Of a stretch of DNA of 64,000 nt, positions 10,984-31,043 are shown one piece after another (position 1 is the first letter of the stretch; every line of letters begins with the position of its first letter). Source of the DNA: an archaeon (lineage in GTDB: Archaea > Nanobdellota > Nanobdellia > Pacearchaeales > GW2011-AR1); assembly GCA_043810775.1 (NCBI GenBank), contig JBDRNU010000025.1, positions 48,417-112,416 on the forward strand. Direction: 5' to 3'. Under the pieces are notes generated by a model. It was not told the DNA's origin and ran no database searches. It was given only the letters and a program-made list of their open reading frames with translations. Both the position numbers and the translations under genes were made by a program.

Positions 10984-11718
10984 TTACTCGTAACCTAGTT
11001 TAGCAATATCAATAGGCATGCTGACATTTTTTCTCTCAAATCTAGCCCTGTAAGTTCCATCTCCGTTTTCAGTTAAAACTACATCAGCGTAGTCTTCCAT
11101 TCCGAAAACTCCGCCAATATCTTCGCAACTTGTAACTGGAGTTTTTCTACCAGTATTTACAGCAACTACTGCCATTGCTTCTAAAGAACCAGATTGTCCG
11201 CCTAAAACTGCTAGCTTTAAGTCAGGATTTTGAACTAGCTCGTAAATTACTTCTTTTAGCATTTGACCTCTGCTTTTACAGATTTCATTAAAAGGAGTTG
11301 TTTTTCCACCATGATATGAATTCATAGTTGGATTTGCAACTAAATCTCTTACGTAAGTGTCAGTGTCTACTTTTCCGCTTTTTACAGCATCTTCATTGTA
11401 TACAATTCCATCGTCCCCAAGTCTTTCATCTTCCATAAATGGTCTTTTTTCAACACCATTTTCAGAAGGGTCAATTCCTAGAGCACCTAAATAAATAGCA
11501 TTTGCAGTATGGGCAGTTCTATTTAATTTATTAGCTCTAAGTAAGACATTTTTTGGTCCAACTTGGTTTTGTTTGCAGTATCCACCTAGAGTTTTTCTTG
11601 AAGTGTCATAGATTCTTTTAGAAGAATCCCACTGCACTGTATCTTCTATTGTTACTCCATTTGCGTCTTTAGGAACAATTCCGTGCCTTGATATTCTTAT
11701 TCTTTTTTCTTTAATCAT
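10984..11718 (-). CDS. Hypothetical protein (244 aa from the preferred start), last gene of the swivel-domain array
   Basis: Track ORF is 10984..11745. The internal ATG (MIKEKRIRISRHG) is preceded by TAAGGAGAAGTAAA (SD-like GGAG). No family recognised. AVLGGQSGSLEAMAV only weakly recalls PGGxGTxxE-type Rossmann motifs, so it is left unassigned. Confidence 0.6.
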   Translation of the reverse strand: MIKEKRIRISRHGIVPKDANGVTIEDTVQWDSSKRIYDTSRKTLGGYCKQNQVGPKNVLLRANKLNRTAHTANAIYLGALGIDPSENGVEKRPFMEDERLGDDGIVYNEDAVKSGKVDTDTYVRDLVANPTMNSYHGGKTTPFNEICKSRGQMLKEVIYELVQNPDLKLAVLGGQSGSLEAMAVVAVNTGRKTPVTSCEDIGGVFGMEDYADVVLTENGDGTYRARFERKNVSMPIDIAKLGYE

Positions 11719-11795
11719 TTTACTTCTCCTTAATTTATTTAACATAATAGAGTATTTAAATCTTTCTATTTGTCACTATTATTTAATGGTGACAA

Positions 11796-13541
11796 TTACT
11801 TGTTTTTTCCTTTAATCTTTCTTACAGTGCCATGATTCATTCTTAGCTCGAGTTCATCTCCGTTTTTCAGTACTTTTGTGGCTATTTTTGTGCCTATTAT
11901 GCAAGGTTTATTCATTTCTCGAGAGACTATAGCTGCATGGCTTGTAATCCCCCCTATATCAGTTATTACTGCTCTTGCTTTTCTCATTAGTTGGACAAAA
12001 TCTGGACGAGTCATTGGAGTAATTAGAATTTCATCTTCTGAAATTGTTTCTTTATAGGGATTTAAAATTACTTTAGCTTTTCCTAAAATAATTGGATTTT
12101 CACCTCTACAAGCTATGATTCCTTGGAAATTTTCTGTTTCAGAATGTGAATTTTCTTTTAAGAGTATATTTTTAATTGGAATTACATCATTTCCTGTAAA
12201 AAAGCTAATCTTATTTTTATTTTGAGATACTATAAAAATACCTTCTCTTCTTTCATTCAGTATATTTATATCAAGGTTTTTTTCAAGTAAATCTGGGAGT
12301 TCACTTATTTTTGCGTAAGATGTTAGTTTTGGTTCTAGTCCTGTTCTTTTTCCAAATTCTTCAAAAAATCTGAACATATGATGCAGCATCATTAGAACTA
12401 TCTTTTTTCTTTCGTCTTTTATCCATGTTACATTTTGAATGTGCTGTAGTTCTTGGTCTATTTCTGAAGGTATTTTAAATTGTTTTATTATATTATTTCT
12501 TTTTTCTTTAATTGCTTCTGTATCTTCAAGTTCATTAAGTTCTTTTTTTAAATCAGTTAGGGTAAATTCTTTTAGTGCTCCTTTTATAAATTCAGTGAAT
12601 TCTATTATTGAGAGTATTGTCCATTGCCCATATGAATTCTGCACCCAATAATAATTTTGCTGATGCTCTTGTATTGCTCTGAATATTTCTGGATAATTCA
12701 TTTTTAGTTCTGCTAGATAATCTGCATAAGGTAGATTTTTTATAAGATTTCTTTGACGAGGGCTTTGAAAGTATTTTAAAATTAATCTTAGGAAGTCTCT
12801 TCTTTCTCTTGCTACAAATGATAATTCAAATGGAAGTGTTAGAGTTGCAAATGATTCTTTTGCTTTTTTTTCATCACCAATTAGCTTTGTAATTTTTGGC
12901 ATGTAATAATCATCTAAATAATGATTATATGGTTCAACTACTAGGCCTACTTCCCAGAATTTTCCTAGAACTTTGTTAAATTTATTAAATTCTTCAACTA
13001 GTGCTTCATTTGATAAAGAATCAATTTTAATGAATTCTAGTCTTTTTAGGAATTTTTCTGTTTTTTCATAAATCTCTTCATATTCTTTTAAGAAGATTTC
13101 AATTTTTTCTGGATCTTCTTTTACTGCTTTTATTTGCGCTTTACAGCTTTCTAGTGATTCTTGGATACTTAGAATTTGTTTCATGTAGTCTTTTTCTGTG
13201 TAAAATATTGAGTGTGATAAGCAGGGTTTGAAGTATTTTTCAGTGTCTGACATTTTTAAGATTCCTATTTCAAGAGTTAAAGGAAGGCCTGGAGCTTCGT
13301 CTGTCCAGAATTTTTCTGTTTTTATATAATTCATAAACTGGTCTTTATTAATTTCTTCTATTTCTTGTTTTTTATTTAGGAATTTATCAAGGTCTTGTTT
13401 TTTATAACGTCTATCTCCACGATTACCTATTCTAATTGCTTTTAAAATTCCAGAATTATCCCAGTTTCTTAGGGTTATTTTACTAACTCCAAGTAGTTTA
13501 GCTGCTGAACTTATATCAATTAAATCTGTATTTTTAACCAT
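11796..13541 (-). CDS. MerR-type HTH + helical middle region + C-terminal PEP-utilizer mobile (phosphohistidine swivel) domain protein (581 aa)
   Basis: N-terminus ISSAAKLLGVSKITLRNWDNSGILKAIRIGNRGDRRYKKQDL (MerR/excisionase-like HTH). C-terminus MTRPDFVQLMRKARAVITDIGGITSHAAIVSREMNKPCIIGTK (swivel domain with the His). Confidence 0.85.
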   Translation of the reverse strand: MVKNTDLIDISSAAKLLGVSKITLRNWDNSGILKAIRIGNRGDRRYKKQDLDKFLNKKQEIEEINKDQFMNYIKTEKFWTDEAPGLPLTLEIGILKMSDTEKYFKPCLSHSIFYTEKDYMKQILSIQESLESCKAQIKAVKEDPEKIEIFLKEYEEIYEKTEKFLKRLEFIKIDSLSNEALVEEFNKFNKVLGKFWEVGLVVEPYNHYLDDYYMPKITKLIGDEKKAKESFATLTLPFELSFVARERRDFLRLILKYFQSPRQRNLIKNLPYADYLAELKMNYPEIFRAIQEHQQNYYWVQNSYGQWTILSIIEFTEFIKGALKEFTLTDLKKELNELEDTEAIKEKRNNIIKQFKIPSEIDQELQHIQNVTWIKDERKKIVLMMLHHMFRFFEEFGKRTGLEPKLTSYAKISELPDLLEKNLDINILNERREGIFIVSQNKNKISFFTGNDVIPIKNILLKENSHSETENFQGIIACRGENPIILGKAKVILNPYKETISEDEILITPMTRPDFVQLMRKARAVITDIGGITSHAAIVSREMNKPCIIGTKIATKVLKNGDELELRMNHGTVRKIKGKNK

Positions 13542-13590
13542 TTTTAGCTAATTTTGTATATTTAAGTTGATATATATTTATAATTAATTA

Positions 13591-13605: not shown

Positions 13606-13619
13606 ATTTATACGAACTT

Positions 13620-14948
13620 TTAAAGAATCTTTATTACACCAGTATTAGCATCTACTTCAACTTCTTGGCCGTCCTTTAAGACTTGTGTAGCTATTTTAGT
13701 TCCTATAATACAAGGCTTTCTTAGTTCACGAGCTACTATAGCAGCGTGGCAAGTAATTCCACCTTCATCTGTTATTATAGCAGAAGCTTTTTTACAAGCT
13801 GTTATGATATTTGGACGTGTCATTTCACTAACTAAGACGTCTCCTTCTTGCATATTTTTTATTTTTTCCAAGTGATTGTCAGCGTTTCTATAGGAAAGCA
13901 CTATAACCTTACCTTTTACTTTTCCTTTGTTTGCTATAGCTCCTTTTAATTCTTTTAAATCTAATTTTACAGATAAACTTTCTTTAATCTCTTTAGCTTT
14001 ATTTCCTTCAAGTATATTTATTTCATTATTTTTTAAAATAAATATTGAGCTTTCTTTTCTTTCCTGTAATATGCTTTTTTCAATTTTCTTTCCTGTTTCA
14101 AGCATTTTAGCTATTTCTTGATAATTGCAAAGTCTAAGCTCTTCTTTTGATATCTTAAGCCTGGTTTTTATTTCTTCTAGGATCAATTCATTATAATATA
14201 GGGCTTGCATCCAGATAAGCCTCATTCTAAATCTTTGCTCAGTTATATTTCTTAAGATATCTGAAATTAATACAGCTTCTCCTGGAATTTCAGAATTTTG
14301 AATTAAGCTCATTCTTTCTTTTTGATCTGCATCCTCTTCTTTGAATAAGACTTTTTTATTAAGATTTTTGTCTATTTTAGCTTCTTCTGACTTAATTGAT
14401 TCTGCAAATGATTTTAAGAAAGGATTATTTTTTTCATTAATGATGAATCTCTTTTTAGGAGTAGTCAAAGCAATTATTATTCCATCTATATCTTTTATTC
14501 CTTGACTGGTTAATAAATCTCTTAATTTTTTTTCTATTTTACTTATATTATGTGGTTGAGTTGCAATGTAGCTTATAAAACACTCTTTTATTCCCCTTCC
14601 AAAAGTATCTAGTAAGTTACTTAACTCTTCATTGCTTATTTCTTTGAAATCTTGTTCAGCTAGTTTTTGCATTTGGGTCACTATCGAACTGTAAGCAGTT
14701 TTTACTTCTTTTTCAAATTTCTTGAATTTAGTAGTACTTCTGAAAAATTCATATCCTTCATTTTCAGCTTTTTTAAGTTCTTCTTCTTGAACATAAAATT
14801 CAGCATTAAATCCATTACCCCATACTAGTGCTTGGCTTATTCCAAATCCAAATCTTTCTTTTAGTCTTGGACCGTAATTTAGCAAGATACCATTTAAGTC
14901 ATAGTAATTCTGATTTTCATCTGCCCACATTAAAATATATTTATTCAT
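13620..14948 (-). CDS. X-swivel protein: unassigned helical N-terminal region + C-terminal PEP-utilizer mobile domain (442 aa)
   Basis: C-terminus MTRPNIITACKKASAIITDEGGITCHAAIVARELRKPCIIGTK. The start overlaps the stop of the upstream 251-aa gene by 8 nt. Confidence 0.85.
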   Translation of the reverse strand: MNKYILMWADENQNYYDLNGILLNYGPRLKERFGFGISQALVWGNGFNAEFYVQEEELKKAENEGYEFFRSTTKFKKFEKEVKTAYSSIVTQMQKLAEQDFKEISNEELSNLLDTFGRGIKECFISYIATQPHNISKIEKKLRDLLTSQGIKDIDGIIIALTTPKKRFIINEKNNPFLKSFAESIKSEEAKIDKNLNKKVLFKEEDADQKERMSLIQNSEIPGEAVLISDILRNITEQRFRMRLIWMQALYYNELILEEIKTRLKISKEELRLCNYQEIAKMLETGKKIEKSILQERKESSIFILKNNEINILEGNKAKEIKESLSVKLDLKELKGAIANKGKVKGKVIVLSYRNADNHLEKIKNMQEGDVLVSEMTRPNIITACKKASAIITDEGGITCHAAIVARELRKPCIIGTKIATQVLKDGQEVEVDANTGVIKIL

Positions 14949-15696
14949 TTTGTCCTCTTTCTGTATATTCTCTGCATCTAGCTCTTACTTTATTATCGCT
15001 TTCTTGCACATATGCACTCCATTTTTCATAATTTAGATACTTCAGTCTTCTTATACCTGAATAAGCATCTGCCCAGATTCTTTCACCCAATTTTCTTCCT
15101 TGAACTATAAGTTCGTGAGCTTCTTGATCTCTAGCTGCTTTATCTCCAGCACGGTATTCCCATCCATTCATTGAATAGTATCTTGCATCTGCAGGTTTAA
15201 GGTCTTCTGGAGTTTTTCCTTGTTTTTTAGGAATAACTACTCTATTTACAAAGTCATTAGGGACTTCTGTGTCATCCATATCTTTTCCATAAACTTTATG
15301 TGTGAATTTTGTTCCTTCAAGAACTGTTTTGTATTTTCTTCCTTTTCTTTGACCTGCTTGTTTTTGATATTCTCCAAGAATATGTGTGTCTACTGCATAA
15401 ACTTTATCAGCTTGTCTTAATTTTTCTCTTGTTGAAGCTTTTCTACCAGTATTCCTAAGGGCCTCTATGTCTAAGTTATATCTACCTATACTTTCTTCTA
15501 AAGCTTGAATATGCTTATCTTCAATAGGATGGTTTTCTTTATTTCCTATATAGTCTGGATGACCCATGCCTTCGGCTGTAATCTCTAATTCACCTAAATG
15601 TGCTAGTTCATCTATTCTAGTCTGAGCTATAGCAGCAAGAGTTGTCCCTCTCCTACCCCCATAACATCCGACCAGAGCTTTGTATTTGTTTTTCAT
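14941..15696 (-). CDS. Hypothetical protein with by-eye resemblance to the low-molecular-weight phosphatase (LMW-PTP/ArsC) fold; divergent P-loop
   Basis: KALVGCYGGRRGTTLAA resembles ILVVCvGNiCRSPtAE. EITAEGMG resembles the SAG motif. ADKVYAVDTHILGE resembles the aDlIlvMd..h segment. The P-loop is C-x4-R rather than the canonical C-x5-R. SD-like GAGGT lies upstream. Confidence 0.55.
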   Translation of the reverse strand: MKNKYKALVGCYGGRRGTTLAAIAQTRIDELAHLGELEITAEGMGHPDYIGNKENHPIEDKHIQALEESIGRYNLDIEALRNTGRKASTREKLRQADKVYAVDTHILGEYQKQAGQRKGRKYKTVLEGTKFTHKVYGKDMDDTEVPNDFVNRVVIPKKQGKTPEDLKPADARYYSMNGWEYRAGDKAARDQEAHELIVQGRKLGERIWADAYSGIRRLKYLNYEKWSAYVQESDNKVRARCREYTERGQNE

Positions 15697-15807: not shown

Positions 15808-16788
15808 ATGATAGATATTGATGTAAAAGATAGGAAAATATTGTATTATCTTTCCCAAGATGGAAGAGCTAGTAATACTCATCTTTCAAAGAAAGTTGGG
15901 TTGAGTAAAAATGCTGTTGCATATAGAATTGAGAGACTGAAAAAATTAAAAGTTATAAAACACTTTGCTTCAATTGTAAATCTTGGAAGCTTAAATTTCA
16001 CTACTTTTACTGTTTTGTTAAAGTTTAATGAGGATATATATGAAAATAGTTCTATTATTGAGTATTTTAAAAGCCATGATTATGTTGATTGGATGGTCAG
16101 CTTGTCTGGGCAGTGGGACCTTTTTATTGAGTTTGTTTCCAGGGATTTTAACCATTTGACTGAGATAATAGAGGAAATTATAAGTTATTTTAAAGATACG
16201 CTTGAAACTTATGAGTTATCTTATTCTAGGGTGACTTTAAGAGTTGAGCATCTTGTAAAGGATTTTTACCAGGACTTAAAACTCAGTCCTATTAAGACTA
16301 GTGAGAGAACTAAGCAGATCTTTAAGCTAGATAAGATTGATAAGCAGATACTAGAAGTTCTAAATAAAGATTCTTCTCTTCCTTATCTTAGTATTGCTGA
16401 GAAATTAAAGACCAGTATTGATGTTGTGAGATATAGGATTAGTAATTTAGTTAGTAAAGGAGTGATAGTTAAATTTTTCCCAGAAATATCCCTTCCCAAG
16501 TTAGGTTATACTGAGTATTTGTATAGTTTAAGATTAAAGAACTTATCTTCTGAAAAATTTAGGGATATTCAGAATGATATAAAAAATAATAACAATATAA
16601 CTTATGCGTTTGTAGATAGTGTTAGTTTAAGGATTATTTTTGTCTGTGCATTTAAATCTCCAGAAGCTATAGATCATTTATCCAGAGGCTTAAGAAAAAA
16701 GTATATGGGCAGTATAGATAAACAGGAGTATCTTATAATTAAGGAACAGATGCTGTTTAATTTATTTCCCAGGGGATTAACTAAATAA
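15808..16788 (+). CDS. Tandem (duplicated) Lrp/AsnC-family transcriptional regulator (326 aa)
   Basis: Two AsnC-type HTH units: DRKILYYLSQDGRASNTHLSKKVGLSKNAVAYRIERLKKLKVIKHF and DKQILEVLNKDSSLPYLSIAEKLKTSIDVVRYRISNLVSKGVIVKF. Each is followed by ~100 aa of the right length for a RAM-like domain. Confidence 0.8.
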   Translation: MIDIDVKDRKILYYLSQDGRASNTHLSKKVGLSKNAVAYRIERLKKLKVIKHFASIVNLGSLNFTTFTVLLKFNEDIYENSSIIEYFKSHDYVDWMVSLSGQWDLFIEFVSRDFNHLTEIIEEIISYFKDTLETYELSYSRVTLRVEHLVKDFYQDLKLSPIKTSERTKQIFKLDKIDKQILEVLNKDSSLPYLSIAEKLKTSIDVVRYRISNLVSKGVIVKFFPEISLPKLGYTEYLYSLRLKNLSSEKFRDIQNDIKNNNNITYAFVDSVSLRIIFVCAFKSPEAIDHLSRGLRKKYMGSIDKQEYLIIKEQMLFNLFPRGLTK

Positions 16789-18516: not shown

Positions 18517-18563
18517 TTTTTAATAATTTTAGCTTTTTTAGTTGGAATTAGTTGACCTTTGCA

Positions 18564-18592
18564 TTTATAAATGTTTCGGTTAAAGGGTATTT
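18564..18592 (-). promoter_or_regulatory. BRE/TATA-like promoter plus conserved upstream box (plus strand TTTATAAATGTTTCGGTTAAAGGGTATTTA)
   Basis: Lies between the stop of the 553-aa gene and the start of the 575-aa gene. GGTTAAAGGGTATTTA is repeated at 20313-20328. Confidence 0.45.
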
Positions 18593-23925: not shown

Positions 23926-24974
23926 TTTGCTTTTTTTAGTATTTTAATTATACCTTTATCTGCATCTACTTCTACTATATCATTATCATTTAAAACTTTT
24001 GTGGCTATCTTAGTTCCTATAATGCATGGTATTTTCATCTCTCGGGCTACAATTGAGGCATGACAAGTTATACCTCCTTCATCTGTTACTATTGCAGCAG
24101 CTTTTTTTAAATATTTGACTATTTCAGGACGAGTCATTGGTGCTACTAAGATAAAATCTTTTTTGTTTTTGAAGATTTTTTTGTAATTTCCATAATCTTT
24201 TTCTGTTATTTTTATTACTTGGCCTTTTGCGAATCCAGTGTAAGCTGAATTTCCTGATATTTGGTTCTTTTCACTAAGTTTTGGTTCTTGATTTACTAAG
24301 AAATTTTCAATTTCTTCTGCTTCTTTATTCAAGTAAATATTGAATTGATTATTAATAATTGTAATTGCTAGGGGTCTATTTTCTGTTATTTTTATTTTAT
24401 TTCCTTTTAATATATTAATAATTTCTTCTGAGGTAGCTCTTTCAAGTTGTTTAATCTTATATTCTAATTTTTTTTGTATATACTTTATTATTTTATTATA
24501 TGCTCTCCATATTAGGTCTACAAATTTGGAAAGTTTTATTCTTATTTCTGGTAGCTCTTTTAATAATTTGGAGTCATTTGTGTCAAAATATTCTTCTGTG
24601 TAAAATAAGTATGTTTTATAAAGTTCAAGGCATTGGTTATTTAGAAAGTTCATTCCTTTAATTGCTTTATCTTTATCTAGTTTTGAATTAATGAAACTCT
24701 TTACTTTCTGCTTGTTATTTTTTATATATTTCAAGCTATCTGAATTTATTTTATTTATTAGTTTTTCATCAGAAAGCTTTATTTTTGAAGCTTGTTCATC
24801 CCAGACTTGAAAATTTTTATTTTGAAAAACTACCAAATTAGGTGTTTTGTTTGCAATAATCTTGTAATATGGATTATTAATATGTGCATGGCAGGCATAT
24901 TCCCATGATATGACTGGAGTTATTGAAAACACTTCATATTTACTGAATTTATGTGTTTTTAGAAGGGTTATCAT
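23922..24974 (-). CDS. X-swivel protein (350 aa)
   Basis: C-terminus MTRPEIVKYLKKAAAIVTDEGGITCHASIVAREMKIPCIIGTK. ATGA overlaps at both junctions. Confidence 0.85.
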   Translation of the reverse strand: MITLLKTHKFSKYEVFSITPVISWEYACHAHINNPYYKIIANKTPNLVVFQNKNFQVWDEQASKIKLSDEKLINKINSDSLKYIKNNKQKVKSFINSKLDKDKAIKGMNFLNNQCLELYKTYLFYTEEYFDTNDSKLLKELPEIRIKLSKFVDLIWRAYNKIIKYIQKKLEYKIKQLERATSEEIINILKGNKIKITENRPLAITIINNQFNIYLNKEAEEIENFLVNQEPKLSEKNQISGNSAYTGFAKGQVIKITEKDYGNYKKIFKNKKDFILVAPMTRPEIVKYLKKAAAIVTDEGGITCHASIVAREMKIPCIIGTKIATKVLNDNDIVEVDADKGIIKILKKAK

Positions 24975-26038
24975 TTTATAATTCTCACTATACCTTTATC
25001 TGCATCTACTTCAACCAAGTCTCCATCTTTTAATAGCTGAGTGGCTATTTTTGTGCCGATTACACAAGGAACTCCAAGCTCGCGAGAAACAATAGCAGCG
25101 TGTGATAGTAGGCCCCCCTCATCTGTTATAATAGCTGCTGCTTTTTTGCAGGCTAGAATAGTATCTGGGCGAGTCATTTCTGTAACTAGAATTTCACCTT
25201 TTTTAAATTTAAATACTTCTTTAAGGATGTTCTTTTTATTATGAAGAAGAATTCTTACTTTGCCGCTAGCTTTTCCTTTCATTGCTGTTTTACCTATAAG
25301 TTTATTTACTTTTTTAACAGATAGCATTTCCTTGTATATTTTTTTAAATTTTTTGCCAGTTATTAAGGACGGCTTGCCTTTTAGAGTGTAAAATAAGTAT
25401 CCTCTTGATCTTTCTTCAAGAATCTTGTGAGAAACTTTCTTACCATTGAAAATTTTTATGATCTCTTGATTATTATAAAAAAATAAATCTTTTACTTTAA
25501 CTTGAAATCTTCTTGAAATTTCTTTAAGCACTACACCTAGAAGAAAATAGAATAAAACCTCCCCTTCTTTTCTCAAAATAAATCTTAATTTGCTTAAATC
25601 TATAATTAAACTTTCATGTTTTGACGCTTCTTTTTCCAGGTTAAACAGGAAAAAATCCTCTGTTTTCATATAAATATTAGAATAATTAACTAAAGTTTTT
25701 AGAATATTATTAAAAAATAAACTTTTTAATTGGGAATTAGACAGATTTTTAATTTTTATATTATTAAAATATTGCTTTGTTTTTTCAATTTCCTTAAGTA
25801 TTTGTTGGACCTGCTTCTTGTAATTTTTAATATTTCCATTATTTGTGAAGAATTTATAGCCATATCCTGCTGTTTTCTTGTCTCTGTCATTTAAATAATA
25901 AACGTGAATGACTGAATTTTTGTAAAGAATGAGCATGTCATTTGCAAAAAGCTCTATGCTCTTATTGGATAGGAAAAATAGGGGTAGCCTAAGCTCCCTT
26001 GCCCAGAATGTTATTTTGTATATTCCTTTTGGCAACAT
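24971..26038 (-). CDS. X-swivel protein (355 aa)
   Basis: C-terminus MTRPDTILACKKAAAIITDEGGLLSHAAIVSRELGVPCVIGTK. The start lies 1 nt after the stop of the 1667-aa gene. Confidence 0.85.
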   Translation of the reverse strand: MLPKGIYKITFWARELRLPLFFLSNKSIELFANDMLILYKNSVIHVYYLNDRDKKTAGYGYKFFTNNGNIKNYKKQVQQILKEIEKTKQYFNNIKIKNLSNSQLKSLFFNNILKTLVNYSNIYMKTEDFFLFNLEKEASKHESLIIDLSKLRFILRKEGEVLFYFLLGVVLKEISRRFQVKVKDLFFYNNQEIIKIFNGKKVSHKILEERSRGYLFYTLKGKPSLITGKKFKKIYKEMLSVKKVNKLIGKTAMKGKASGKVRILLHNKKNILKEVFKFKKGEILVTEMTRPDTILACKKAAAIITDEGGLLSHAAIVSRELGVPCVIGTKIATQLLKDGDLVEVDADKGIVRIIK

Positions 26039-26039
26039 T

Positions 26040-29000
26040 TTATTTAGCTTTCTTTTTAGATAGGACTTTTACTACACCAATATCTGCATCTACTTCCACA
26101 ACTTCTCCTTCACCCAAAATATCTGTTGCATTTACTGTTCCTACTATTGTTGGTTTTTTTAGTTTCTCAGCAACAATTGCAGCATGACAGCTTCTTACTA
26201 TTCCTTCATCAGCGTCAACTTCAACTCTTTTTCCTTCTTGCAAAAATTCTGTTGCTATTTTAGTGCCTATTATTGTAGGTTTTTTAAGCTCACGGGCTAC
26301 TATAGCTGCATGGCAGGTAATTCCCCCTTCATCTGTTACAATTCCTCCTGCCAGTTTCATGGCTGGTACGTATCTTGGATCAGTCATACTTGTAACTAGA
26401 ATATCTCCTTTTTCAATTTTTTTTGCATCTTCTATTTTTCTTATAATTCTGACTCTTCCTATAGCTTTTCCTTTATATGCTGAGACGCCTTTAATTTCTT
26501 GGTTTTCTTTTTTTTCATTAAGTTCATCCCATAAAGATTCTTTGTAAAATATTTCTTGACCTTTCGAGGTATATTTTATGATGCAAAATTTTTTTCTTTT
26601 TTCAATATCTGGAATTTTCTTGGTTTTAAGGAATTCTTCAAATTCATCTATTGTGAGGTATTTTAAAGAGCCTTTTTTAGTATTGTACTTTTTTTCAAGT
26701 TTTGTTAGTATTTTTTCCTCGATTATGAAACTTCTTTTATGCACATCTTCATATGCTCTTCTTATTTCTAGGGCTATATCATTAATTTCTTTTGGAATAT
26801 CTTCTCCATAGTACATTGGAACTTCATATCCTGAAAGAATAACATTTGTAAAGTCAACAAATGTTTTGTAGAGTTTTACTGCTGCTTTTTCTGGGTTTTT
26901 GTAGCTATCTTTGTAAAATTTGTTAAATTCAGTGAGTTTTTTGTCATATTGCTTTTTTATTTTTCTAAAATCCTCTAAAGTATTTCTTTGGATAAGGCTT
27001 TTACTTCTTTTTCTTCCATCTTCTTTTGATGTATAGTGGTAGAGGATGTCATCTCTCATTGTTATATAACATGGACTTGATCCTACTCCAAAAAATTCCT
27101 TATTTTCATTAAATAAACCTTTAAAGACACAAGTTGTTCCTAAAATAGAATAGTCTCTTTGATGTCTGTCATAATCAAGAGACTTGTCAAATTCTAAAAG
27201 AGTTGTTTTTTTATCATGTCTGTGCTGGCTTTTTTCTAATATTATTACTTGGGCGTGATTTGCTTTTACTTCAACTAAATCCCTGTCTTTAAGGATTTTT
27301 GTTCCAACTTTTGTGCCAATTATACAAGGTATTCCAAGTTCACGAGAGACAATTGCAGCATGGCAAGTCATTCCTCCTTCATCTGTAACTATTGCTGATG
27401 CTCGTTTCATAGCTGGAAGATATTCTGGGCGAGTCATTCCAGTTACAAGTATCTTCCCTTGTTCAAAGTTCTTAATGTCCTCTAGTGTTTTGCAGATTGA
27501 AACCTCCCCTATTGCCTGTCCTGTAGATGCACATGTTCCACTTATTGTTGTTGACTCGATAATTTTTTCTTGATCTGAAATTTTCTCATATATTTCTTTT
27601 GCTTTATCCCCGCTAAAAATTATTATATTATTTGGAAGAGAGGGATTCATAATCCATATGAACATTTCTTCTCTATTTTTGATTTCTTTCTGAAATTCTT
27701 TATCTAAAAACTTCTTGCTTTCAATTTCCCGAGGCATTAGATAATAGAGTTTTTTAACAGGAATTTTATATTTTTCTGCTATTTTGTGCAAGACTTTATC
27801 ATGCTCGCATACAGCTTTCATAATATTTTCTTTTCTTTCATCTTGCCAGAGTGTACAAAATGAGAGAAGATTAGCAAGATTTTGAGTTTTTCGATCTATA
27901 TTGTATTTTTTAATTATTTGTTTTTTTGCAACTCTTATTTTAATAAAGTGATCTTTTGGTAGCAATTTAATTGAATCTTTTTGCTCAAGTAGCTCCTTTA
28001 TTGTTAGAGGATCAGTTCCAGCATAACTGCTTTTAATCCATTCAAATTTTTCAAGGTGTTTTTCAAGAAGTTTTTTTTGCTTATTCTTATCTTTAGATTT
28101 AAATGCTTTTAATAGACTTTCATCATGGCGATTGTTAAATGATTCTTCTTCTGGCATGGTTAATACATTTAACGCTTCATTAAGCTGTTTTAAATCTTTT
28201 ATTTTTTTATCAAGCAAATGTTTTAATACATGGCTTTGAGTTAAGGAAAATGCTTCAATTACATGACCTGTTCCTACTCCATAACCAATTAGGTCAAAAG
28301 TTATCTTAAATACCTCTAACAATTCTTTCTCTGAATAATCTGTTTTAGCTTTTGATTTTAGCTTGTTGTATTGCTTTGAAAATTGGTTGCTGTAGATTAT
28401 TCTGGTTTTTTGAAAATATTTTTCATCTTTTTTTAATTTATTAAGTATAATCTCTCCAACTCTCTCTAAGTCAGATTTTATGTAAGACATGTCCCCAAAG
28501 TCTTTTTCTGACTTGAACATAAATTTCTCATAGCTATATCCTAAAGGATCCTTCATTTTATCTGTTGAGTCTACAGCTGCATTAAAGAATACTGGATATG
28601 CAGAGCCTTGTTGAGTTATTCTCTCTTCTTTTAGTATTTTTTCGATAATTTCGCTACTTGGGTTCTGGTCATTAAGTATTTTTACTATACCTTTATCTGC
28701 ATCCACTTCGACTTCCTGGCCGTCTTTAAGTACCTTTGTAGCTATATTAGTGCCAATTATACAGGGTTTTTTTAGCTCACGAGAAATAATAGCTGCATGA
28801 CATAAAATTCCCCCCATATCTGTTATAATAGCAGCTGCTTTTTTCATCAATGGAACATAATTTGGATCTGTCATACTACACACAAGAATCTCCCCTTCTT
28901 TAAATTTTAAAAAGTCATGACTTCCAAGCACTATTTTAATATTTCCTTTAACAACTCCTTTATAGGTTGGTGTGCCTGTGAAATCTTTTGTTTCTTTTAG

Positions 29001-31043
29001 TATGGTATCAAGATAATCCTTTTTTAGCTTGTCTAAATCTTTTTTGCATAATAAATAGTTATTATTTATAGAAATCATAGCCACATCATTTCCTAGACAA
29101 GAATCTTCTAAAGTGAGTTTCTTTCTTTCCAATAACTTATAAAATTGATCAAGTGGCAGAGATAACAATTTTTCGTAAGATATTTTATTCGCTGATGCAA
29201 TTTTTTTAAAAACAGGTTTTAAATTGTATACTGCTTTGTTAGTCACTTCATTATTAAGAATTCTTCCTACTGAAAAGATGTTTAGGATTTTAATTAATTC
29301 ATTTAATTTTTTATCTTTAAAATTATGTTTTTCAAATCCTCTTTTTTCATTATCTGCTCTCTTAATCTGTTCTAGAATATCTTGTTTAGTGTAACCTTCT
29401 CCAGATAGAAAGTATTGGTTTAAATAACTGTATTCTTCAATCACTTTATCTATATCTTTTGAACTAAATTTTCCTTTTTCTCTTAATCTTGCTATTTCAG
29501 TCTCAAGTTTAAATGCATCTGATTCTTCATCTTTATCTAATAATTCTGGCACTGTAATTTGTTTTATTTTTAGTTCATCAAATCTTTTCAATATTGATTC
29601 TTCAAGATAATTACTCATATCCCTTAATATTTCAAATACAACAAGAATTGTTAATACTTTCTCTAGGATATTTGATACTGATTTTTCATTATAGTTTTTC
29701 TTTTTAGATATTTCCCCTATTTCTTTCTCAAGTTCTTTTCTGAATTTCTCTTGATTTTTATTAAAATTATAAATAAAACTAAAGTCTCCTGAATCTATTC
29801 TTCCAACTACTTTTTTTTCAATTATTTCAAGTTCTTTTTCTGCGACGTAAACATCATAACCTGCTGATAAATATTTAATAGGAGGAATATCTTGAATTCC
29901 ATATTTTTTTAAATAAAATCTAGATTGTGAACTATTGAATATATCAAACATTAATCTTGGAACTCTCCAACTACCTACTTTTTTCCAATTATCTTTTTTG
30001 TATTTATCAATAAATTCTTTGTATGAAATTTGTTCACTTTCTTTAAATGGAGTTTCAGAATAAGTCACTTCATCTTTTTTTTTAGGCTCTTCCTCTTCTA
30101 AGGAAGTTAGAGTAGTAATTGGGCGAGATTGAGTTATGTATAGCTTACCTTTTTCCATTGCCCATTCAACATCTACTGGGAATCCATAATGGTTTTCTAT
30201 CTTAGCTATTAGTTTTGAAAGTTCAATTATTTCTTTATCTGTTAAAATCTGTTTGTTTCCTTCTTCTCCTAGCTCTCGCCACTCATTTCCCCCACCCTTT
30301 ACTCTGAATAAACCTCTTGATTGTTCTGAGATATTTTTATCAATAATATGCCAGTCCTGCTTGTCTATAACATAGCTATCTGGAGTTATCTGGCCTGAGA
30401 CTATTGCTTCTCCTAAGCCTAGACCTGCTTCAATTATTAGCTGGTTTCTGTCTTGAGTTACAGGATGAACTGAGAATGCTATTCCAGATTCTTCACTAGC
30501 AACCATTTTTTGAACTACTACTGCTACTGATATTTTTTGATTGTGGAGTTTTTGCTCAAATCTATAGAATATTGCTCTTGGAGTGAAAAGTGAGGCCCAG
30601 CATTTTTTTACGTTTTCAAGCAAGCTGGATTTTGTAGTGTTTAGATAAGATTCAAGCTGGCCTGCCCAGGCTGCTGAAGCTGAATCTTCTGCAGTTGCGC
30701 TGGAACGGACTGCTACATATTCTGCACCTAGTTTTTTAAATTCTACTAGAATCTCGGTTTCAATATCTTTAGGCATTTCTGCATTAAGAATTAGAGCTTT
30801 TATTGTTTCTGAAGCTTCTTCTGATGTATGCACTTCTTCTGTATTGACAGTGTCCATGGCTGCGTCAATTTCTGTTATGAGATCCGCTTCTTCAATGAAT
30901 TTTTCAAAAGCATCTGATAATATAACAAATCCTTCTGGAACAGGAATTCCTGCCTGAGTCATTTCACCTAAACTAGCTCCCTTACCACCAGCTATATTTG
31001 CATCATTTTTACTAATTTTGGAAAAATTGAGTGTAAATTGCAT
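26040..31043 (-). CDS. 1667-aa multi-module protein: PpsA/PPDK-type ATP-grasp nucleotide-binding domain + three (helical region + swivel) modules + one C-terminal half swivel; no PEP/pyruvate TIM barrel recognised
   Basis: N-terminus IAGGKGASLGEMTQAGIPVPEGFVI ... VEWAMEKGKLYITQSRPIT (PPDK_N-like, ~aa 1-312, nt ~30108-31043). Swivel His motifs: ITDMGGILCHAAIISRE (His ~aa 749, nt 28797-28799), VTDEGGMTCHAAIVSRE (~aa 1228, nt 27360-27362), VTDEGGITCHAAIVARE (~aa 1578, nt 26310-26312) and the truncated copy SCHAAIVAEKLKKPTIVGT (~aa 1620, nt 26184-26186). Confidence 0.9.
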   Translation of the reverse strand: MQFTLNFSKISKNDANIAGGKGASLGEMTQAGIPVPEGFVILSDAFEKFIEEADLITEIDAAMDTVNTEEVHTSEEASETIKALILNAEMPKDIETEILVEFKKLGAEYVAVRSSATAEDSASAAWAGQLESYLNTTKSSLLENVKKCWASLFTPRAIFYRFEQKLHNQKISVAVVVQKMVASEESGIAFSVHPVTQDRNQLIIEAGLGLGEAIVSGQITPDSYVIDKQDWHIIDKNISEQSRGLFRVKGGGNEWRELGEEGNKQILTDKEIIELSKLIAKIENHYGFPVDVEWAMEKGKLYITQSRPITTLTSLEEEEPKKKDEVTYSETPFKESEQISYKEFIDKYKKDNWKKVGSWRVPRLMFDIFNSSQSRFYLKKYGIQDIPPIKYLSAGYDVYVAEKELEIIEKKVVGRIDSGDFSFIYNFNKNQEKFRKELEKEIGEISKKKNYNEKSVSNILEKVLTILVVFEILRDMSNYLEESILKRFDELKIKQITVPELLDKDEESDAFKLETEIARLREKGKFSSKDIDKVIEEYSYLNQYFLSGEGYTKQDILEQIKRADNEKRGFEKHNFKDKKLNELIKILNIFSVGRILNNEVTNKAVYNLKPVFKKIASANKISYEKLLSLPLDQFYKLLERKKLTLEDSCLGNDVAMISINNNYLLCKKDLDKLKKDYLDTILKETKDFTGTPTYKGVVKGNIKIVLGSHDFLKFKEGEILVCSMTDPNYVPLMKKAAAIITDMGGILCHAAIISRELKKPCIIGTNIATKVLKDGQEVEVDADKGIVKILNDQNPSSEIIEKILKEERITQQGSAYPVFFNAAVDSTDKMKDPLGYSYEKFMFKSEKDFGDMSYIKSDLERVGEIILNKLKKDEKYFQKTRIIYSNQFSKQYNKLKSKAKTDYSEKELLEVFKITFDLIGYGVGTGHVIEAFSLTQSHVLKHLLDKKIKDLKQLNEALNVLTMPEEESFNNRHDESLLKAFKSKDKNKQKKLLEKHLEKFEWIKSSYAGTDPLTIKELLEQKDSIKLLPKDHFIKIRVAKKQIIKKYNIDRKTQNLANLLSFCTLWQDERKENIMKAVCEHDKVLHKIAEKYKIPVKKLYYLMPREIESKKFLDKEFQKEIKNREEMFIWIMNPSLPNNIIIFSGDKAKEIYEKISDQEKIIESTTISGTCASTGQAIGEVSICKTLEDIKNFEQGKILVTGMTRPEYLPAMKRASAIVTDEGGMTCHAAIVSRELGIPCIIGTKVGTKILKDRDLVEVKANHAQVIILEKSQHRHDKKTTLLEFDKSLDYDRHQRDYSILGTTCVFKGLFNENKEFFGVGSSPCYITMRDDILYHYTSKEDGRKRSKSLIQRNTLEDFRKIKKQYDKKLTEFNKFYKDSYKNPEKAAVKLYKTFVDFTNVILSGYEVPMYYGEDIPKEINDIALEIRRAYEDVHKRSFIIEEKILTKLEKKYNTKKGSLKYLTIDEFEEFLKTKKIPDIEKRKKFCIIKYTSKGQEIFYKESLWDELNEKKENQEIKGVSAYKGKAIGRVRIIRKIEDAKKIEKGDILVTSMTDPRYVPAMKLAGGIVTDEGGITCHAAIVARELKKPTIIGTKIATEFLQEGKRVEVDADEGIVRSCHAAIVAEKLKKPTIVGTVNATDILGEGEVVEVDADIGVVKVLSKKKAK

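What the first reader, a model, noticed from the sequence alone, without database searches (positions are those of the whole stretch)
10984..31043. Array of nine genes with 11.5 phosphohistidine swivel domains, one ATP-grasp and no PEP/pyruvate-binding barrel
Seen: nine minus-strand genes between 11796 and 31043 each end in a ~100-aa domain reading MT(R/T)P(D/E)..P.M..A.A(I/V)(I/V)TDEGG(I/V/M)T(C/S)HAAIV(S/A)RE(L/M)..P(C)(I/V)(I/V)GT. This is the PEP-utilizer mobile (swivel) domain, and the phospho-accepting His is conserved in every copy. There are eight single-domain genes, plus three full copies and one half copy in the 1667-aa gene. The only PpsA/PPDK-type ATP-grasp (GGKGASLGEM..GIPVP.GF) sits at the N-terminus of the 1667-aa protein. 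I recognise no PEP/pyruvate TIM-barrel domain anywhere in the window. The regions before each swivel are lysine/glutamate-rich and share a recurring motif by eye (ITWIKDERKK, ITWIKDDRKR, TLWQDERKE, INIRDSRKD), so they look like diverged paralogs. Four junctions overlap as ATGA or abut, which suggests translational coupling. Established: in PpsA, PPDK, PTS enzyme I and rifampin phosphotransferase the swivel His carries phosphate between an ATP-grasp and a substrate-binding domain. Inference: one charging module serves many (variable domain + swivel) acceptor modules. That could be a battery of small-molecule dikinases or a branched His-phosphorelay. I do not know a described system with this layout, and it occupies ~20 kb of what looks like a small archaeal genome.
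Basis: partly seen in the sequence, partly recalled or inferred. Interest (0 to 1): 0.92.

Follow-up and report, generated by a model that had tools for sequence, protein, structure and literature searches.

The report
One ATP-grasp, eleven rifampin-phosphotransferase-like dikinase modules
A small archaeal genome spends about 17 kb on one ATP-binding domain plus eleven diverged "acceptor-binding domain + phosphate-carrying histidine" modules of the rifampin-phosphotransferase kind, and I found this one-to-many enzyme layout throughout ultra-small bacteria and archaea but in no paper.

Summary
Nine minus-strand genes (11796-31043) carry 11 complete PEP-utilizer swivel domains with the catalytic His, plus one half copy. 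The 64-kb window holds one PPDK_N ATP-grasp and no PEP/pyruvate TIM barrel. DNA copies are only 60-78% identical, so this is not an assembly artefact.

The "variable" pre-swivel regions are not novel. They are the acceptor-binding domain of the rifampin phosphotransferase (RPH) superfamily. AlphaFold models (pLDDT 93-95) match only RPH over their full length.

Split versions of this enzyme (PpsAB, CreHI, HpeHI) are already characterised, as 1:1 pairs. The new feature is the 1:n layout, and it recurs widely in CPR bacteria and DPANN archaea:
- stand-alone grasp genes (311-321 aa, 56-70% identical to this one) sit inside arrays of up to 10 module genes;
- 120 of 120 close homologues of the 1667-aa protein have one grasp and 2-6 modules;
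- one ORF has eight modules.

Module subfamilies are conserved across genomes (39-57% identity) but are ≤28% identical within the array, apart from the A/C pair.

Most likely this is a battery of ATP-dependent water dikinases that share one charging domain. Substrates are unknown. It is a new variant of a known kind.

The parts
30069..31043 (-). ATP-grasp (PPDK_N) of protein I, aa 1-325. It is the only nucleotide-binding/charging domain in the window.
   Evidence: Pfam PF01326 covers residues 16-324, E 2.2e-97. PDB sequence hits to PEP synthase and RPH ATP-grasp domains, E 1e-87 to 1e-97. It is 56-70% identical over aa 1-312 to stand-alone 311-321-aa grasp genes inside CPR arrays, and those genes end where this domain ends. 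It is the only grasp found by tblastn in the window.
29022..30068 (-). I module 1, acceptor-binding region (aa 326-674). The catalytic motif is degenerate here (GRILNNE).
   Evidence: The I1 unit (binding region + swivel) matches the F-family profile at E 2.3e-66. The N-terminal part matches only weakly.
28662..29021 (-). I swivel 1 (His749; Leu at His-2)
   Evidence: PF00391 stretch 714-785; motif checks.
27585..28661 (-). I module 2, full-length acceptor-binding domain with the motif LWQDERKE (aa 1065-1072)
   Evidence: The I2 unit (binding domain + swivel) matches profile positions 13-505 at E 3e-101. Motif column. An external relative is 39% identical.
27225..27584 (-). I swivel 2 (His1228)
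26535..27224 (-). I module 3, short acceptor-binding domain (about 230 aa). It lacks the middle helical subdomain.
   Evidence: Profile match to the N- and C-terminal parts only. It is 51% identical to an ORF of a Komeilibacteria (CPR) locus, L009.
26190..26534 (-). I swivel 3 (His1578)
26043..26189 (-). Half swivel (aa 1619-1667): a diverged in-frame 126-nt tandem duplication of the C-terminal half of swivel 3. It is probably a vestigial tail.
   Evidence: 85/126 nt and 28/42 aa identical to the preceding 42 aa. It occurs in 1 of 120 giant homologues.
24971..26038 (-). H: stand-alone short module (355 aa, His313), one nucleotide downstream of I
   Evidence: PF00391 E 1e-25. The ortholog group is 50-57% identical and mostly from CPR. 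AF2 pLDDT 94.7. Foldseek top hits are RPH, E 2e-12, TMq 0.38-0.43. hhalign against the F family gives E 2.7e-70; H lacks F residues ~140-290 and the motif Asp.
23922..24974 (-). G: stand-alone short module (350 aa, His305)
   Evidence: PF00391 E 4e-25. Profile match E 5.7e-59. An external relative is 40% identical.
22387..23925 (-). F: stand-alone full-length module (512 aa, His467; motif LLDFKKE at about aa 310-316)
   Evidence: AF2 pLDDT 93.3. Foldseek finds RPH 5FBU/5FBT/5HV1 at E 1e-13, TMq 0.55-0.60 over ~570 columns; all other hits match the swivel only. More than 5000 homologues. The pre-swivel part alone finds 897 50%-identity cluster representatives.
20960..22390 (-). E: stand-alone module (476 aa, His435; motif IRDSRKD)
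   Evidence: An external relative is 49% identical.
20326..20922 (-). Isochorismatase-family hydrolase embedded in the array; a possible accessory enzyme
   Evidence: PF00857 E 4e-44. A 44%-identical copy is embedded in the Woesearchaeota array L027.
18609..20270 (-). D: HTH_17/MerR + full-length module (553 aa, His510; motif YHDFRKE)
   Evidence: An external relative is 52% identical.
16789..18516 (-). C: HTH_17/MerR + full-length module (575 aa, His533; motif WIKDDRKR)
   Evidence: It is 44% identical to A in the pre-swivel region.
13620..14948 (-). B: stand-alone module (442 aa, His401; the motif is reduced to basic residues, RFRMR)
11796..13541 (-). A: HTH_17/MerR + full-length module (581 aa, His535; motif WIKDERKK)
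14941..15696 (-). 251-aa orphan ORF whose stop overlaps the start of B by 8 nt. Its membership of the system is uncertain.
   Evidence: No Pfam, NCBIfam, PADLOC or PDB hit. No homologue in the 83 related loci then fetched.
15808..16788 (+). Tandem-duplicated Lrp/AsnC-type regulator (two HTH_AsnC units) on the opposite strand inside the array; a candidate regulator
   Evidence: Pfam HTH_AsnC-type with two stretches, E 7e-25. NCBIfam LysM/LrpA-like.
18563..18581 (-). Conserved BRE/TATA-like promoter element (minus strand AACCGAAACATTTATAAAT) upstream of C. Equivalent copies lie at 13590-13608 (upstream of A) and 20298-20316 (upstream of D).
   Evidence: Direct-repeat families D9 and D11. Alignment of the upstream regions.
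32750..33451 (+). His_Phos_1 (RHG) phosphatase/mutase-family gene, overlapping an APH-like kinase gene (31722-32765), 1.7 kb upstream of I. It is a possible accessory.
   Evidence: Pfam PF00300 and PF01636. His_Phos_1 genes are embedded in or next to arrays in six other loci.

Best explanation
The locus encodes a modular, multi-specificity set of ATP-dependent water dikinases of the rifampin-phosphotransferase (RPH) / PpsAB / HpeHI superfamily.

Proposed mechanism, one step at a time:
- The single ATP-grasp (protein I, aa 1-~320) binds ATP.
- The His of a swivel domain attacks the beta-phosphate.
- The gamma-phosphate leaves as Pi and AMP is released.
- The phospho-His swivel returns to the helical acceptor-binding domain of its own module.
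- It passes the phosphate to a bound acceptor hydroxyl, helped by the acid-x-basic-basic motif (the RPH Arg666-Glu667...Lys670 block).

Three modules are charged in cis because they are fused to the grasp. The eight stand-alone module proteins would be charged in trans, as HpeH is by HpeI. Because the eleven binding domains are old, strongly diverged paralogues, each module probably phosphorylates a different compound.

Shown: domain identities, fold, conserved His and motif, the 1:n layout and its recurrence.
Inferred: charging in trans, dikinase stoichiometry, and distinct substrates.
Unknown: the substrates and the physiological role. Possibilities include trapping or salvage of host-derived compounds, detoxification, or activation for later steps.

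The three HTH-fused modules (A, C, D) may also couple ligand or phosphorylation state to transcription.
For: 1. Domains. There is one PPDK_N and 11 PF00391 domains with the catalytic His.

2. Fold. AF2 models of F (pLDDT 93.3) and H (pLDDT 94.7) match RPH as the top PDB hit, and RPH is the only entry that extends beyond the swivel. E is 1e-13 and 2e-12; TMq is 0.55-0.60 and 0.38-0.43, against ≤0.28 for every non-RPH entry.

3. One fold family. All 11 modules match one profile, E 6e-59 to 4e-187. The H and F families align by hhalign at E 2.7e-70.

4. Catalytic motif. The profile aligns the motif on RPH-Lm 655-672, so that D corresponds to Glu667 and K to Lys670. Arg666Ala and Glu667Ala abolish the second phosphotransfer in RPH, and distant RPH clades keep this block while changing substrate (PMC4844700).

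5. Precedent for action in trans. HpeI (grasp) plus HpeH (binding + swivel) form a two-component dikinase. H581Q abolishes activity, and the two proteins form no stable complex (PMC12167813).

6. The 1:n design recurs.
- 120 of 120 best homologues of I have one N-terminal grasp and 2-6 swivels.
- L047 is a single ORF with a grasp and 8 swivels.
- Among 35 loci with 3 or more module genes, those with a grasp in range have a single grasp. It is often a stand-alone 311-321-aa gene: L013 has 10 modules + G313, L032 has 8 + G314, L070 has G316 + 9. L084 and L085 have a 311-aa PPDK_N gene followed by 2-3 modules.
- These stand-alone grasps are 56-70% identical to I 1-312 and stop there.

7. Same layout in bacteria. 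A giant protein, stand-alone modules and HTH-fused modules occur together in the CPR bacterial loci L086 and L087.

8. Old, conserved module subfamilies. D, E, F, G, I2 and I3 have external relatives at 39-52% identity, and H at 50-57%. In-window paralogues are ≤28% identical over comparable alignment lengths, except A/C at 44%.
Against: - No biochemical data exist for any member of these CPR/DPANN clades.
- The acid-basic motif is degenerate in B, H and I1 and unresolved in G and I3. Some modules may therefore be inactive or work differently.
- 22 of 35 arrays have no grasp within the fetched ±10 kb, for example L005 with 12 modules. Many of those loci are cut by contig ends.
- The swivels carry Thr at His-2 like PEP synthase, not Met as in RPH/HpeH (PMC12167813). 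That leaves room for charging or regulation by another route.
- The rest of this genome was not available, so other grasp genes cannot be excluded.
- The TM-scores to RPH are moderate.
Confidence: 0.6

Rival explanations
1. Regulatory phosphorelay. The swivel proteins are phospho-His carriers or receivers in a branched signalling network, not enzymes. The HTH-fused members (A, C, D) would be transcription factors whose DNA binding is set by phosphorylation or ligand binding.
For: A, C and D carry an N-terminal HTH_17/MerR domain. Each has its own conserved BRE/TATA-like promoter. HTH-fused modules recur elsewhere: P0019, and L087 with HTH_26 and MerR types. An Lrp/AsnC regulator sits inside the array.
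Against: Eight of 11 modules have no DNA-binding domain. A, C and D have the clearest copies of the catalytic acid-x-basic-basic motif that RPH uses for transfer to a small molecule. No receiver-type partner (HPr, EIIA/B, REC) was found in the window. The two readings can coexist for A, C and D.
Confidence: 0.12
2. Grasp-independent modules. The stand-alone proteins are not charged by the ATP-grasp. They would take phosphate from PEP, from a genuine PEP synthase/PPDK, or from phosphorylated metabolites, and act as transphosphorylases or in the ATP-forming direction.
For: The swivel sequences score best against PEP synthase swivels and keep its Thr at His-2. HpeH alone catalyses phosphate exchange between two substrates (PMC12167813). 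Many arrays have no grasp within 10 kb.
Against: Wherever a grasp lies in or next to an array, it belongs to the specific subfamily that is 56-70% identical to the one here, not to a PEP synthase. It is fused to 2-8 modules in thousands of proteins. No PEP-binding TIM barrel occurs in the window.
Confidence: 0.1
3. Antibiotic-resistance battery. The modules are rifampin-phosphotransferase-like enzymes that inactivate a range of antibiotics made by hosts or neighbours. This is a special case of the best explanation, concerning physiological role only.
For: RPH is the closest solved structure. Some database entries are auto-named 'rifampicin phosphotransferase'. A CPR resistome survey counted rph-like genes (PMC8651080).
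Against: Identity to RPH in the binding domain is 15-20%. The NCBIfam RIF_Ptrans_rph score is 490, against a cut-off of 999. Distant RPH clades do not confer rifampin resistance (PMC4844700). The same cluster occurs in archaea and bacteria with 60-70% identical grasp domains. From my own knowledge, rifamycins target bacterial RNA polymerase.
Confidence: 0.1
4. Artefact or decay. The array is a misassembly of repeats, or fragments or pseudogenes of ordinary ppsA/ppdK genes.
For: It is a highly repetitive domain content in a metagenome-assembled genome. There is an odd half-domain at the end of protein I.
Against: The copies are only 60-78% identical in DNA. All ORFs are intact, with conserved His and high-confidence folds. 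Each module type has conserved orthologues in independent assemblies. Syntenic arrays exist in many genomes. There is no TIM-barrel remnant. The half-domain is a diverged in-frame duplication.
Confidence: 0.02

Closest known systems
Rifampin phosphotransferase (RPH-Lm; PDB 5FBS/5FBT/5FBU, 5HV1)
   Same: It has an ATP-grasp, a helical acceptor-binding domain and a C-terminal swivel His domain. It is the only PDB fold that matches the modules beyond the swivel. Its catalytic Arg-Glu...Lys block aligns with the D-x-(R/K)-K motif here. Its mechanism is that of a water dikinase.
   Different: RPH is one chain with one module. Here one grasp is followed by three modules in the same chain and eight more in separate genes. 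Identity in the binding domain is 15-20%. The short modules lack a subdomain. His-2 is Thr, not Met. The NCBIfam RPH cut-off is not reached.
Two-component small-molecule dikinases: phenylphosphate synthase PpsAB, CreHI, HpeHI (PMC12167813)
   Same: The ATP-grasp and the (binding + swivel) part are separate polypeptides that interact transiently. The catalytic His is essential. This is the direct precedent for the stand-alone modules here and for the stand-alone grasp genes in related CPR arrays.
   Different: They are 1:1 gene pairs in aromatic-catabolism operons of free-living bacteria. Here the ratio is 1:11 in the window, and 1:2 to 1:10 elsewhere. The grasp is fused to some modules. The hosts are CPR/DPANN symbionts with no aromatic-catabolism context. 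NCBIfam PRK08296 models match only the swivel part.
PEP synthase (PpsA) and pyruvate phosphate dikinase
   Same: The ATP-grasp and swivel domains are homologous. The swivel sequences here, including Thr at His-2, are closest to PpsA.
   Different: The PEP/pyruvate-binding TIM barrel (PF02896) is absent from every protein in the window. An RPH-type helical domain takes its place, positioned before the swivel.
Prodigiosin/undecylprodigiosin ligases PigC, RedH, HapC
   Same: They belong to the same superfamily and have the same three-domain order. NCBIfam PigC/RedH models align to the modules beyond the swivel, for example F 188-506 against PigC 545-880.
   Different: They are single-module enzymes that activate an aldehyde for C-C condensation in pigment pathways. 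The scores here are far below their cut-offs, and no such pathway genes are present.
PTS Enzyme I
   Same: It has a homologous swivel phospho-His domain. It also shows the idea of one charged His domain feeding several downstream branches.
   Different: EI is charged by PEP through a TIM barrel and passes phosphate to the protein HPr. Neither a TIM barrel nor HPr/EII proteins are present here.

Membership tests
RPH superfamily of ATP-dependent water dikinases (RPH, PigC/RedH, PpsAB/CreHI/HpeHI) | PPDK_N-type ATP-grasp domain | tested here: met
   Protein I residues 16-324, PF01326, E 2.2e-97. RPH and PEP synthase grasp domains match at E 1e-87 to 1e-97.
RPH superfamily of ATP-dependent water dikinases (RPH, PigC/RedH, PpsAB/CreHI/HpeHI) | C-terminal swivel domain with the catalytic His in a T/S..GG...H motif within ~50 residues of the module end | tested here: met
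   All 11 modules meet this.
RPH superfamily of ATP-dependent water dikinases (RPH, PigC/RedH, PpsAB/CreHI/HpeHI) | RIF-BD-type helical acceptor-binding domain preceding the swivel | tested here: met
   For the F model, RPH is the only full-length PDB match (TMq 0.55-0.60, E 1e-13). For the H model, RPH is the top hit with partial coverage (TMq 0.38-0.43). All 11 modules match one profile. G, H and I3 are shortened versions.
RPH superfamily of ATP-dependent water dikinases (RPH, PigC/RedH, PpsAB/CreHI/HpeHI) | Block-9 Arg-Glu...Lys residues needed for the second phosphotransfer | tested here: inconclusive
   An acid-x-basic-basic motif aligned to RPH 666-670 is clear in A, C, D, E, F and I2. 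Only basic residues remain in B and H. The motif is absent from I1. G and I3 could not be aligned reliably.
RPH superfamily of ATP-dependent water dikinases (RPH, PigC/RedH, PpsAB/CreHI/HpeHI) | Reaction ATP + acceptor + H2O -> AMP + Pi + acceptor-phosphate via phospho-His | not testable with these tools
   This needs enzymology.
Two-component dikinases (PpsAB / CreHI / HpeHI subfamily) | Grasp and (binding + swivel) parts encoded as separate proteins | tested here: met
   Eight stand-alone module genes are in the window. Stand-alone grasp orthologues occur in related arrays. In this window the grasp itself is fused to three modules.
Two-component dikinases (PpsAB / CreHI / HpeHI subfamily) | One grasp gene paired with one module gene | tested here: not met
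   The ratio is 1 grasp to 11 modules in the window, and 1 to 2-10 in related loci.
Two-component dikinases (PpsAB / CreHI / HpeHI subfamily) | Met at His-2, and close sequence similarity of the binding domain (~45% among HpeH, CreH and PpsA) | tested here: not met
   His-2 is Thr in 9 modules and Leu in 2. NCBIfam PRK08296-type models align only to the swivel region, and scores are far below the cut-offs. No direct comparison with the HpeH sequence was made.
PEP synthase / PPDK | C-terminal PEP/pyruvate-binding TIM barrel (PF02896) | tested here: not met
   There is no PF02896 hit in any of the nine proteins or in any other ORF of 120 aa or more. PEP synthase models are matched only up to about position 460 of 784-798.
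Genuine rifampin phosphotransferase (clade A RPH) | More than 42% identity to RPH-Lm and the RIF-binding signature blocks; NCBIfam NF041857 cut-off of 999 bits | tested here: not met
   Identity in the structural alignments is 15-20%. The NF041857 score is 490 for protein I and 32-81 for the stand-alone modules.
MerR-family transcription regulators (for A, C, D) | N-terminal MerR/HTH_17 helix-turn-helix | tested here: met
   PF12728, PF00376 and PF13411 all score above their gathering cut-offs in A, C and D.
MerR-family transcription regulators (for A, C, D) | Dimerisation coiled coil plus C-terminal effector-binding domain; binding to promoter spacer DNA | not tested
   The region after the HTH is the RPH-type domain. 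DNA binding cannot be tested with these tools.

The most novel reading that the evidence does not exclude
A single ATP-grasp acts as a common charging hub for a dozen different phospho-His carrier modules, in cis and in trans. The resulting branched dikinase network would be a signature shared by CPR bacteria and DPANN archaea. These genome-reduced symbionts would use it in place of many dedicated kinases or transporters, to trap, salvage or neutralise host-derived compounds irreversibly at the cost of ATP -> AMP. The HTH-fused modules would report the charging or ligand state to transcription.
Probability: 0.3. Interest if true: 0.85.

Novelty: new variant of a known kind. Interest (0 to 1): 0.7.

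Why it matters
Organisms with very small genomes rarely keep large paralogue families. This archaeon nevertheless devotes about 16.5 kb of coding sequence to eleven diverged modules of one enzyme type. The same clusters, with 56-70% identical charging domains, occur across CPR bacteria and DPANN archaea, and thousands of proteins are auto-annotated merely as "PEP-utilizing enzyme".

If one ATP-grasp really charges many acceptor modules, three things follow:
- It would be a new organisational principle for swivel-domain enzymes, a hub-and-spoke dikinase.
- It would provide a large source of unexplored small-molecule phosphorylating activities.
- It would be a concrete handle on what these uncultured symbionts take from, or defend against, their hosts.

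It also warns against reading these genes as PEP synthase or PPDK in metabolic reconstructions, or as rifampin resistance genes in resistome surveys.

Tried and rejected
- **Misassembly or repeat collapse:** rejected. DNA copies are 60-78% identical, and independent assemblies carry orthologues and syntenic arrays.
- **Fragments of ppsA:** rejected. There is no TIM barrel, and the pre-swivel regions have the RPH fold.
- **Anti-phage defence system:** PADLOC hit only the HTH.
- **Structured RNAs in the region:** Rfam and ARAGORN found only three tRNAs, none inside the array.
- **Second grasp in the window:** none found by tblastn.
- **The 251-aa and 253-aa ORFs:** they are not related to each other. 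They have no Pfam, NCBIfam, PADLOC or PDB hit and no homologue in the 83 related loci then fetched. My impression of a low-molecular-weight phosphatase-like CX4R loop in the 251-aa ORF is unsupported by any tool.
- **Source contig:** looking it up by exact protein failed for F and for P0121.
- **Literature:** seven searches found no paper describing these arrays or multi-module proteins in CPR/DPANN (plus a check of PMC8204110). The only mention was rph-like genes counted in a CPR resistome survey.
- **Compositional anomaly (recent transfer):** GC is 28-35% across the whole window, with no step at the array.
- **Caveats on my locus census:** ORFs were called crudely (stop to stop, first Met). 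Loci are limited to ±10 kb or to contig ends. Taxon names are those in the record titles; some bins are labelled Gammaproteobacteria or Methanosarcinales, and I did not check those labels.

Full report
**Observation**

The region holds nine minus-strand ORFs that each end in a Pfam PEP-utilizers (PF00391) domain, with E-values from 8.5e-22 to 2.5e-26:
- A 11796-13541, 581 aa
- B 13620-14948, 442 aa
- C 16789-18516, 575 aa
- D 18609-20270, 553 aa
- E 20960-22390, 476 aa
- F 22387-23925, 512 aa
- G 23922-24974, 350 aa
- H 24971-26038, 355 aa
- I 26040-31043, 1667 aa

Protein I has four PF00391 stretches and a PPDK_N ATP-grasp at residues 16-324 (E 2.2e-97). A, C and D start with an HTH_17/MerR domain.

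The catalytic His in the GG..(C/S)H motif is present in all 11 complete copies.

tblastn with the grasp and with a swivel finds exactly one grasp and 11 full swivels in the 64-kb window. Pfam scans of every other ORF of 120 aa or more show no second PPDK_N and no PEP-utilizers_C TIM barrel.

The half copy at the end of I is an in-frame 126-nt tandem duplication of the C-terminal half of the third swivel. It has since diverged to 85/126 nt and 28/42 aa, and it is found in only this one of 120 homologous giant proteins.

The swivel copies are 60-78% identical in DNA and 38-70% in protein. Repeat-driven misassembly is therefore not credible. Proteins I and H are on record at NCBI with identical sequences, from a 123-kb contig labelled 'MAG: archaeon'.

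The window is archaeal: it encodes RNase P p30, archaeal-type PheRS alpha and beta, and TrmB. GC is uniformly about 30%.

**What the pre-swivel regions are**

By BLASTP they are very diverged paralogues. A and C are 44% identical, every other pair is ≤28% over any long alignment, and many pairs are undetectable.

NCBIfam models of the RPH/PigC/RedH/'PRK06241' group align to them well beyond the swivel. Examples are C 171-575 against NF004882 432-820, and F 188-506 against PigC 545-880.

I collected homologues of F; more than 5000 had E ≤ 1e-5, mostly named 'PEP-utilizing enzyme' or 'phosphohistidine swiveling domain-containing protein' from Nanoarchaeota, Woesearchaeota, Micrarchaeota and CPR phyla. 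I aligned 57 of them (A1).

The AlphaFold2 model of F has mean pLDDT 93.3. Against the PDB, the only entries that match over the whole protein are the Listeria rifampin phosphotransferase structures 5FBU, 5FBT and 5HV1 (E about 1e-13, TMq 0.55-0.60, about 570 columns). All other hits (PPDK, pyruvate kinase, Enzyme I) match the swivel alone, with TMq below 0.2.

A profile of A1 matches all eleven modules (E 6e-59 to 4e-187). G, H and I3 lack the middle ~150 residues.

H has its own tight orthologue group (about 355 aa, 50-57% identity, mostly CPR bacteria). Its model has pLDDT 94.7 and again has RPH as top hit (E 2e-12, TMq 0.38-0.43, against ≤0.28 for every non-RPH entry). The H and F families align profile-to-profile at E 2.7e-70 over 321 columns. 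H lacks F residues ~140-290.

**The motif**

The A1 profile aligns to RPH-Lm 655-866.

In RPH, Glu667 holds the phospho-His825 and Arg666 binds the transferred phosphate. The Arg666Ala and Glu667Ala mutants lose rifampin phosphorylation but keep the ATP half-reaction. Distant clades of the RPH superfamily keep this block while losing the rifampin-binding signatures (PMC4844700).

The acid-x-basic-basic form is clear in A, C, D, E, F and I2. B and H keep only basic residues, I1 has none, and G and I3 could not be placed reliably.

**Known precedent**

Two-component dikinases in which the ATP-grasp (HpeI, PpsB, CreI) and the binding + swivel part (HpeH, PpsA, CreH) are separate proteins have been characterised. 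HpeH is modelled as the RIF-BD + swivel half of RPH. H581Q abolishes activity, the two proteins form no stable complex, and HpeH alone exchanges phosphate between substrates (PMC12167813).

The stand-alone genes here are therefore HpeH-like components, and splitting as such is not new. That paper also notes that RPH/HpeH-type swivels have Met at His-2, whereas PEP synthase, PPDK and EI have a regulatory Thr. The window's swivels have Thr in 9 of 11 copies and Leu in 2. Their swivel sequences score best against PEP synthase.

**The one-to-many layout recurs**

- Homologues of protein I number more than 2000. The best 120 range from 1013 to 2908 aa, come from both DPANN and CPR, and have grasp domains about 60-74% identical to the window's. 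Every one has a single N-terminal grasp followed by 2-6 swivel units.
The best 79 loci are almost all from CPR or DPANN bins.
- With a crude ORF call and HMMs for the swivel and the grasp, 35 of 83 loci have 3 or more module genes. Nearly all of these genes are co-directional and tightly packed, with up to 12 in 21 kb (L005, Nealsonbacteria). Thirteen of the 35 have a grasp inside the fetched stretch, and in each of them it is a single grasp.
- Gene orders include L013 (10 modules, then a 313-aa grasp), L032 (8 modules + G314), L070 (G316 + 9 modules), L059 (G314 + 5 modules) and L069 (G317 + 3 modules). L047 is one 3761-aa ORF with a grasp and eight swivels.
- L084 and L085, both CPR, have a 311-aa PPDK_N gene followed directly by two or three short modules, the first being the H orthologue.
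- The stand-alone grasp genes are 56-70% identical to I residues 1-312 and end exactly there. True PEP synthases in the same data set are only 38-46% identical.
- Two CPR bacterial loci reproduce the window's layout. L086 lies next to FtsW, MurG and MraY; L087 lies next to L35p, L20 and IF3. Each has a 1640-1660-aa grasp + 3-module protein, collinear with I at 33-36% identity, followed by stand-alone modules. L087 also has HTH_26- and MerR-fused modules.

**Age of the paralogues**

For D, E, F, G, I2 and I3, the pre-swivel region has relatives in other genomes at 39-52% identity. I3 is 51% identical to a Komeilibacteria ORF. H has orthologues at 50-57%. The closest in-window paralogue is never above 28% over a comparable alignment length; short local matches reach about 33%. 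Only A/C looks like a recent duplication.

The pre-swivel part of F alone, without the swivel, finds 897 representatives of 50%-identity clusters at E ≤ 1e-3 and 318 at E ≤ 1e-10.

The array is therefore a collection of old, separately conserved module types. That is what distinct specificities would predict.

**Mechanism proposed**

ATP binds the grasp. A swivel His attacks the beta-phosphate, and Pi and AMP leave. The phospho-His domain swings back to its own helical domain and phosphorylates a bound acceptor.

Modules I1-I3 are served in cis. A-H would be served in trans, as in HpeHI and as must be the case in arrays whose grasp is a stand-alone gene.

The fold, the residues and the layout are shown. 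Trans charging, stoichiometry and substrates are inferred.

Accessory genes give only weak hints:
- An isochorismatase-family hydrolase lies inside the array, and a 44%-identical copy lies inside a Woesearchaeota array.
- His_Phos_1 genes lie in or beside arrays in six other loci and next to this one.
- HAD hydrolases flank L084, L085 and L087, and one database protein (P0065) carries HAD Pfam domains together with PF00391.

**Regulation**

A, C and D each have a conserved BRE/TATA-like element (AACCGAAACATTTATAAAT) about 45 nt upstream of the ATG. I-H-G-F-E look like one translationally coupled operon. The HTH fusions may make A, C and D ligand- or phosphorylation-responsive regulators as well as enzymes; this is untested.

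**Novelty**

Seven literature searches found nothing on these arrays or multi-module proteins. The only related mention was rph-like genes counted in a CPR resistome survey.

I rate the finding as a new variant of a known kind. The enzyme superfamily and the split form are known. The hub-and-spoke 1:n organisation, the multi-module polyproteins and their prevalence in CPR/DPANN have not, as far as I could search, been described.

Noticed in passing
window 14941-15696 (-): A 251-aa orphan ORF is translationally coupled to module gene B by an 8-nt overlap (ATGAATAA). It has no Pfam, NCBIfam, PADLOC or PDB hit and no homologue in the 83 related loci then fetched. By eye, its N-terminus (VGCYGGRRGT ... 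ADKVYAVD) resembles a low-molecular-weight phosphatase/EIIB-like Cys loop, but no tool supports this.
   Followed up: partly
It has no family hit and is unrelated to the 251-aa ORF.
   Followed up: partly
window 30069-31043 versus L069, L070, L059, L084, L085: The archaeal ATP-grasp is 56-70% identical to stand-alone grasp genes of CPR bacteria. Module types H and I3 are 50-57% identical to CPR proteins. Whole-cluster layouts also match CPR loci L086 and L087. This suggests transfer of these clusters between the two domains of ultra-small symbionts.
   Followed up: partly
L006, L016, L046, L067, L070, L075; window 32750-33451; L084/L085/L087; P0065: Phosphatase/mutase-family genes (His_Phos_1 with the RHGE motif, and HAD hydrolases) recur inside or beside the arrays. 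One database protein (P0065) carries HAD Pfam domains together with PF00391. This hints at a paired phosphorylation/dephosphorylation or mutase step.
   Followed up: partly
L003/L004, L084, L085: In three CPR loci the arrays lie near BacA (undecaprenyl-diphosphatase). In L084 and L085, CofD-like and PdaC genes lie between the array and BacA in the same order. This may be local synteny or a hint of a lipid-carrier or cell-envelope link.
   Followed up: no
window 13590-13608, 18563-18581, 20298-20316: A near-identical BRE/TATA-like element sits about 45 nt upstream of each of the three HTH-fused module genes (A, C, D). The other upstream regions aligned with them (the 251-aa ORF, I and the isochorismatase gene) do not share it.
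   Followed up: partly
window 256-7830 (+) and 41570-49210 (+): Two giant ORFs are present. One is 2524 aa (subtilase S8 + FG-GAP + CARDB). The other is 2546 aa (beta-helix + laminin-G/concanavalin-like). From my own knowledge, such huge surface proteins are common in DPANN and CPR genomes.
   Followed up: no
window 9662-10015 (+), 35442-36472 (-), 51141-51503 (-): There are several toxin-antitoxin-type genes: a MazF/PemK toxin, a HEPN + nucleotidyltransferase pair, and a weak YoeB-like hit. Two NUDIX genes (7811-8377 and 8801-9400, the latter with a weak, sub-threshold HTH match) lie just before the array.
   Followed up: no
window 15808-16788 (+): A 326-aa protein made of two tandem Lrp/AsnC units lies on the opposite strand inside the array. 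An AsnC-type regulator and an isochorismatase also lie a few kb from the single module gene P0014 in another genome.
   Followed up: no
window 52209-63373: A cluster of glycosyltransferases, a sulfotransferase, methyltransferases, an ABC-2 exporter and three radical SAM/SPASM/B12-binding enzymes. It looks like a surface-glycan or modified-peptide locus unrelated to the finding.
   Followed up: no
Pfam columns (P0122-P0240): Many giant homologues carry precomputed hits to PF02350 (Epimerase_2) and PF01989 (aconitase X swivel). In the window proteins the Epimerase_2 hit falls on the swivel domain and is below its cut-off. These are most likely cross-hits to the swivel fold rather than extra domains.
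   Followed up: partly
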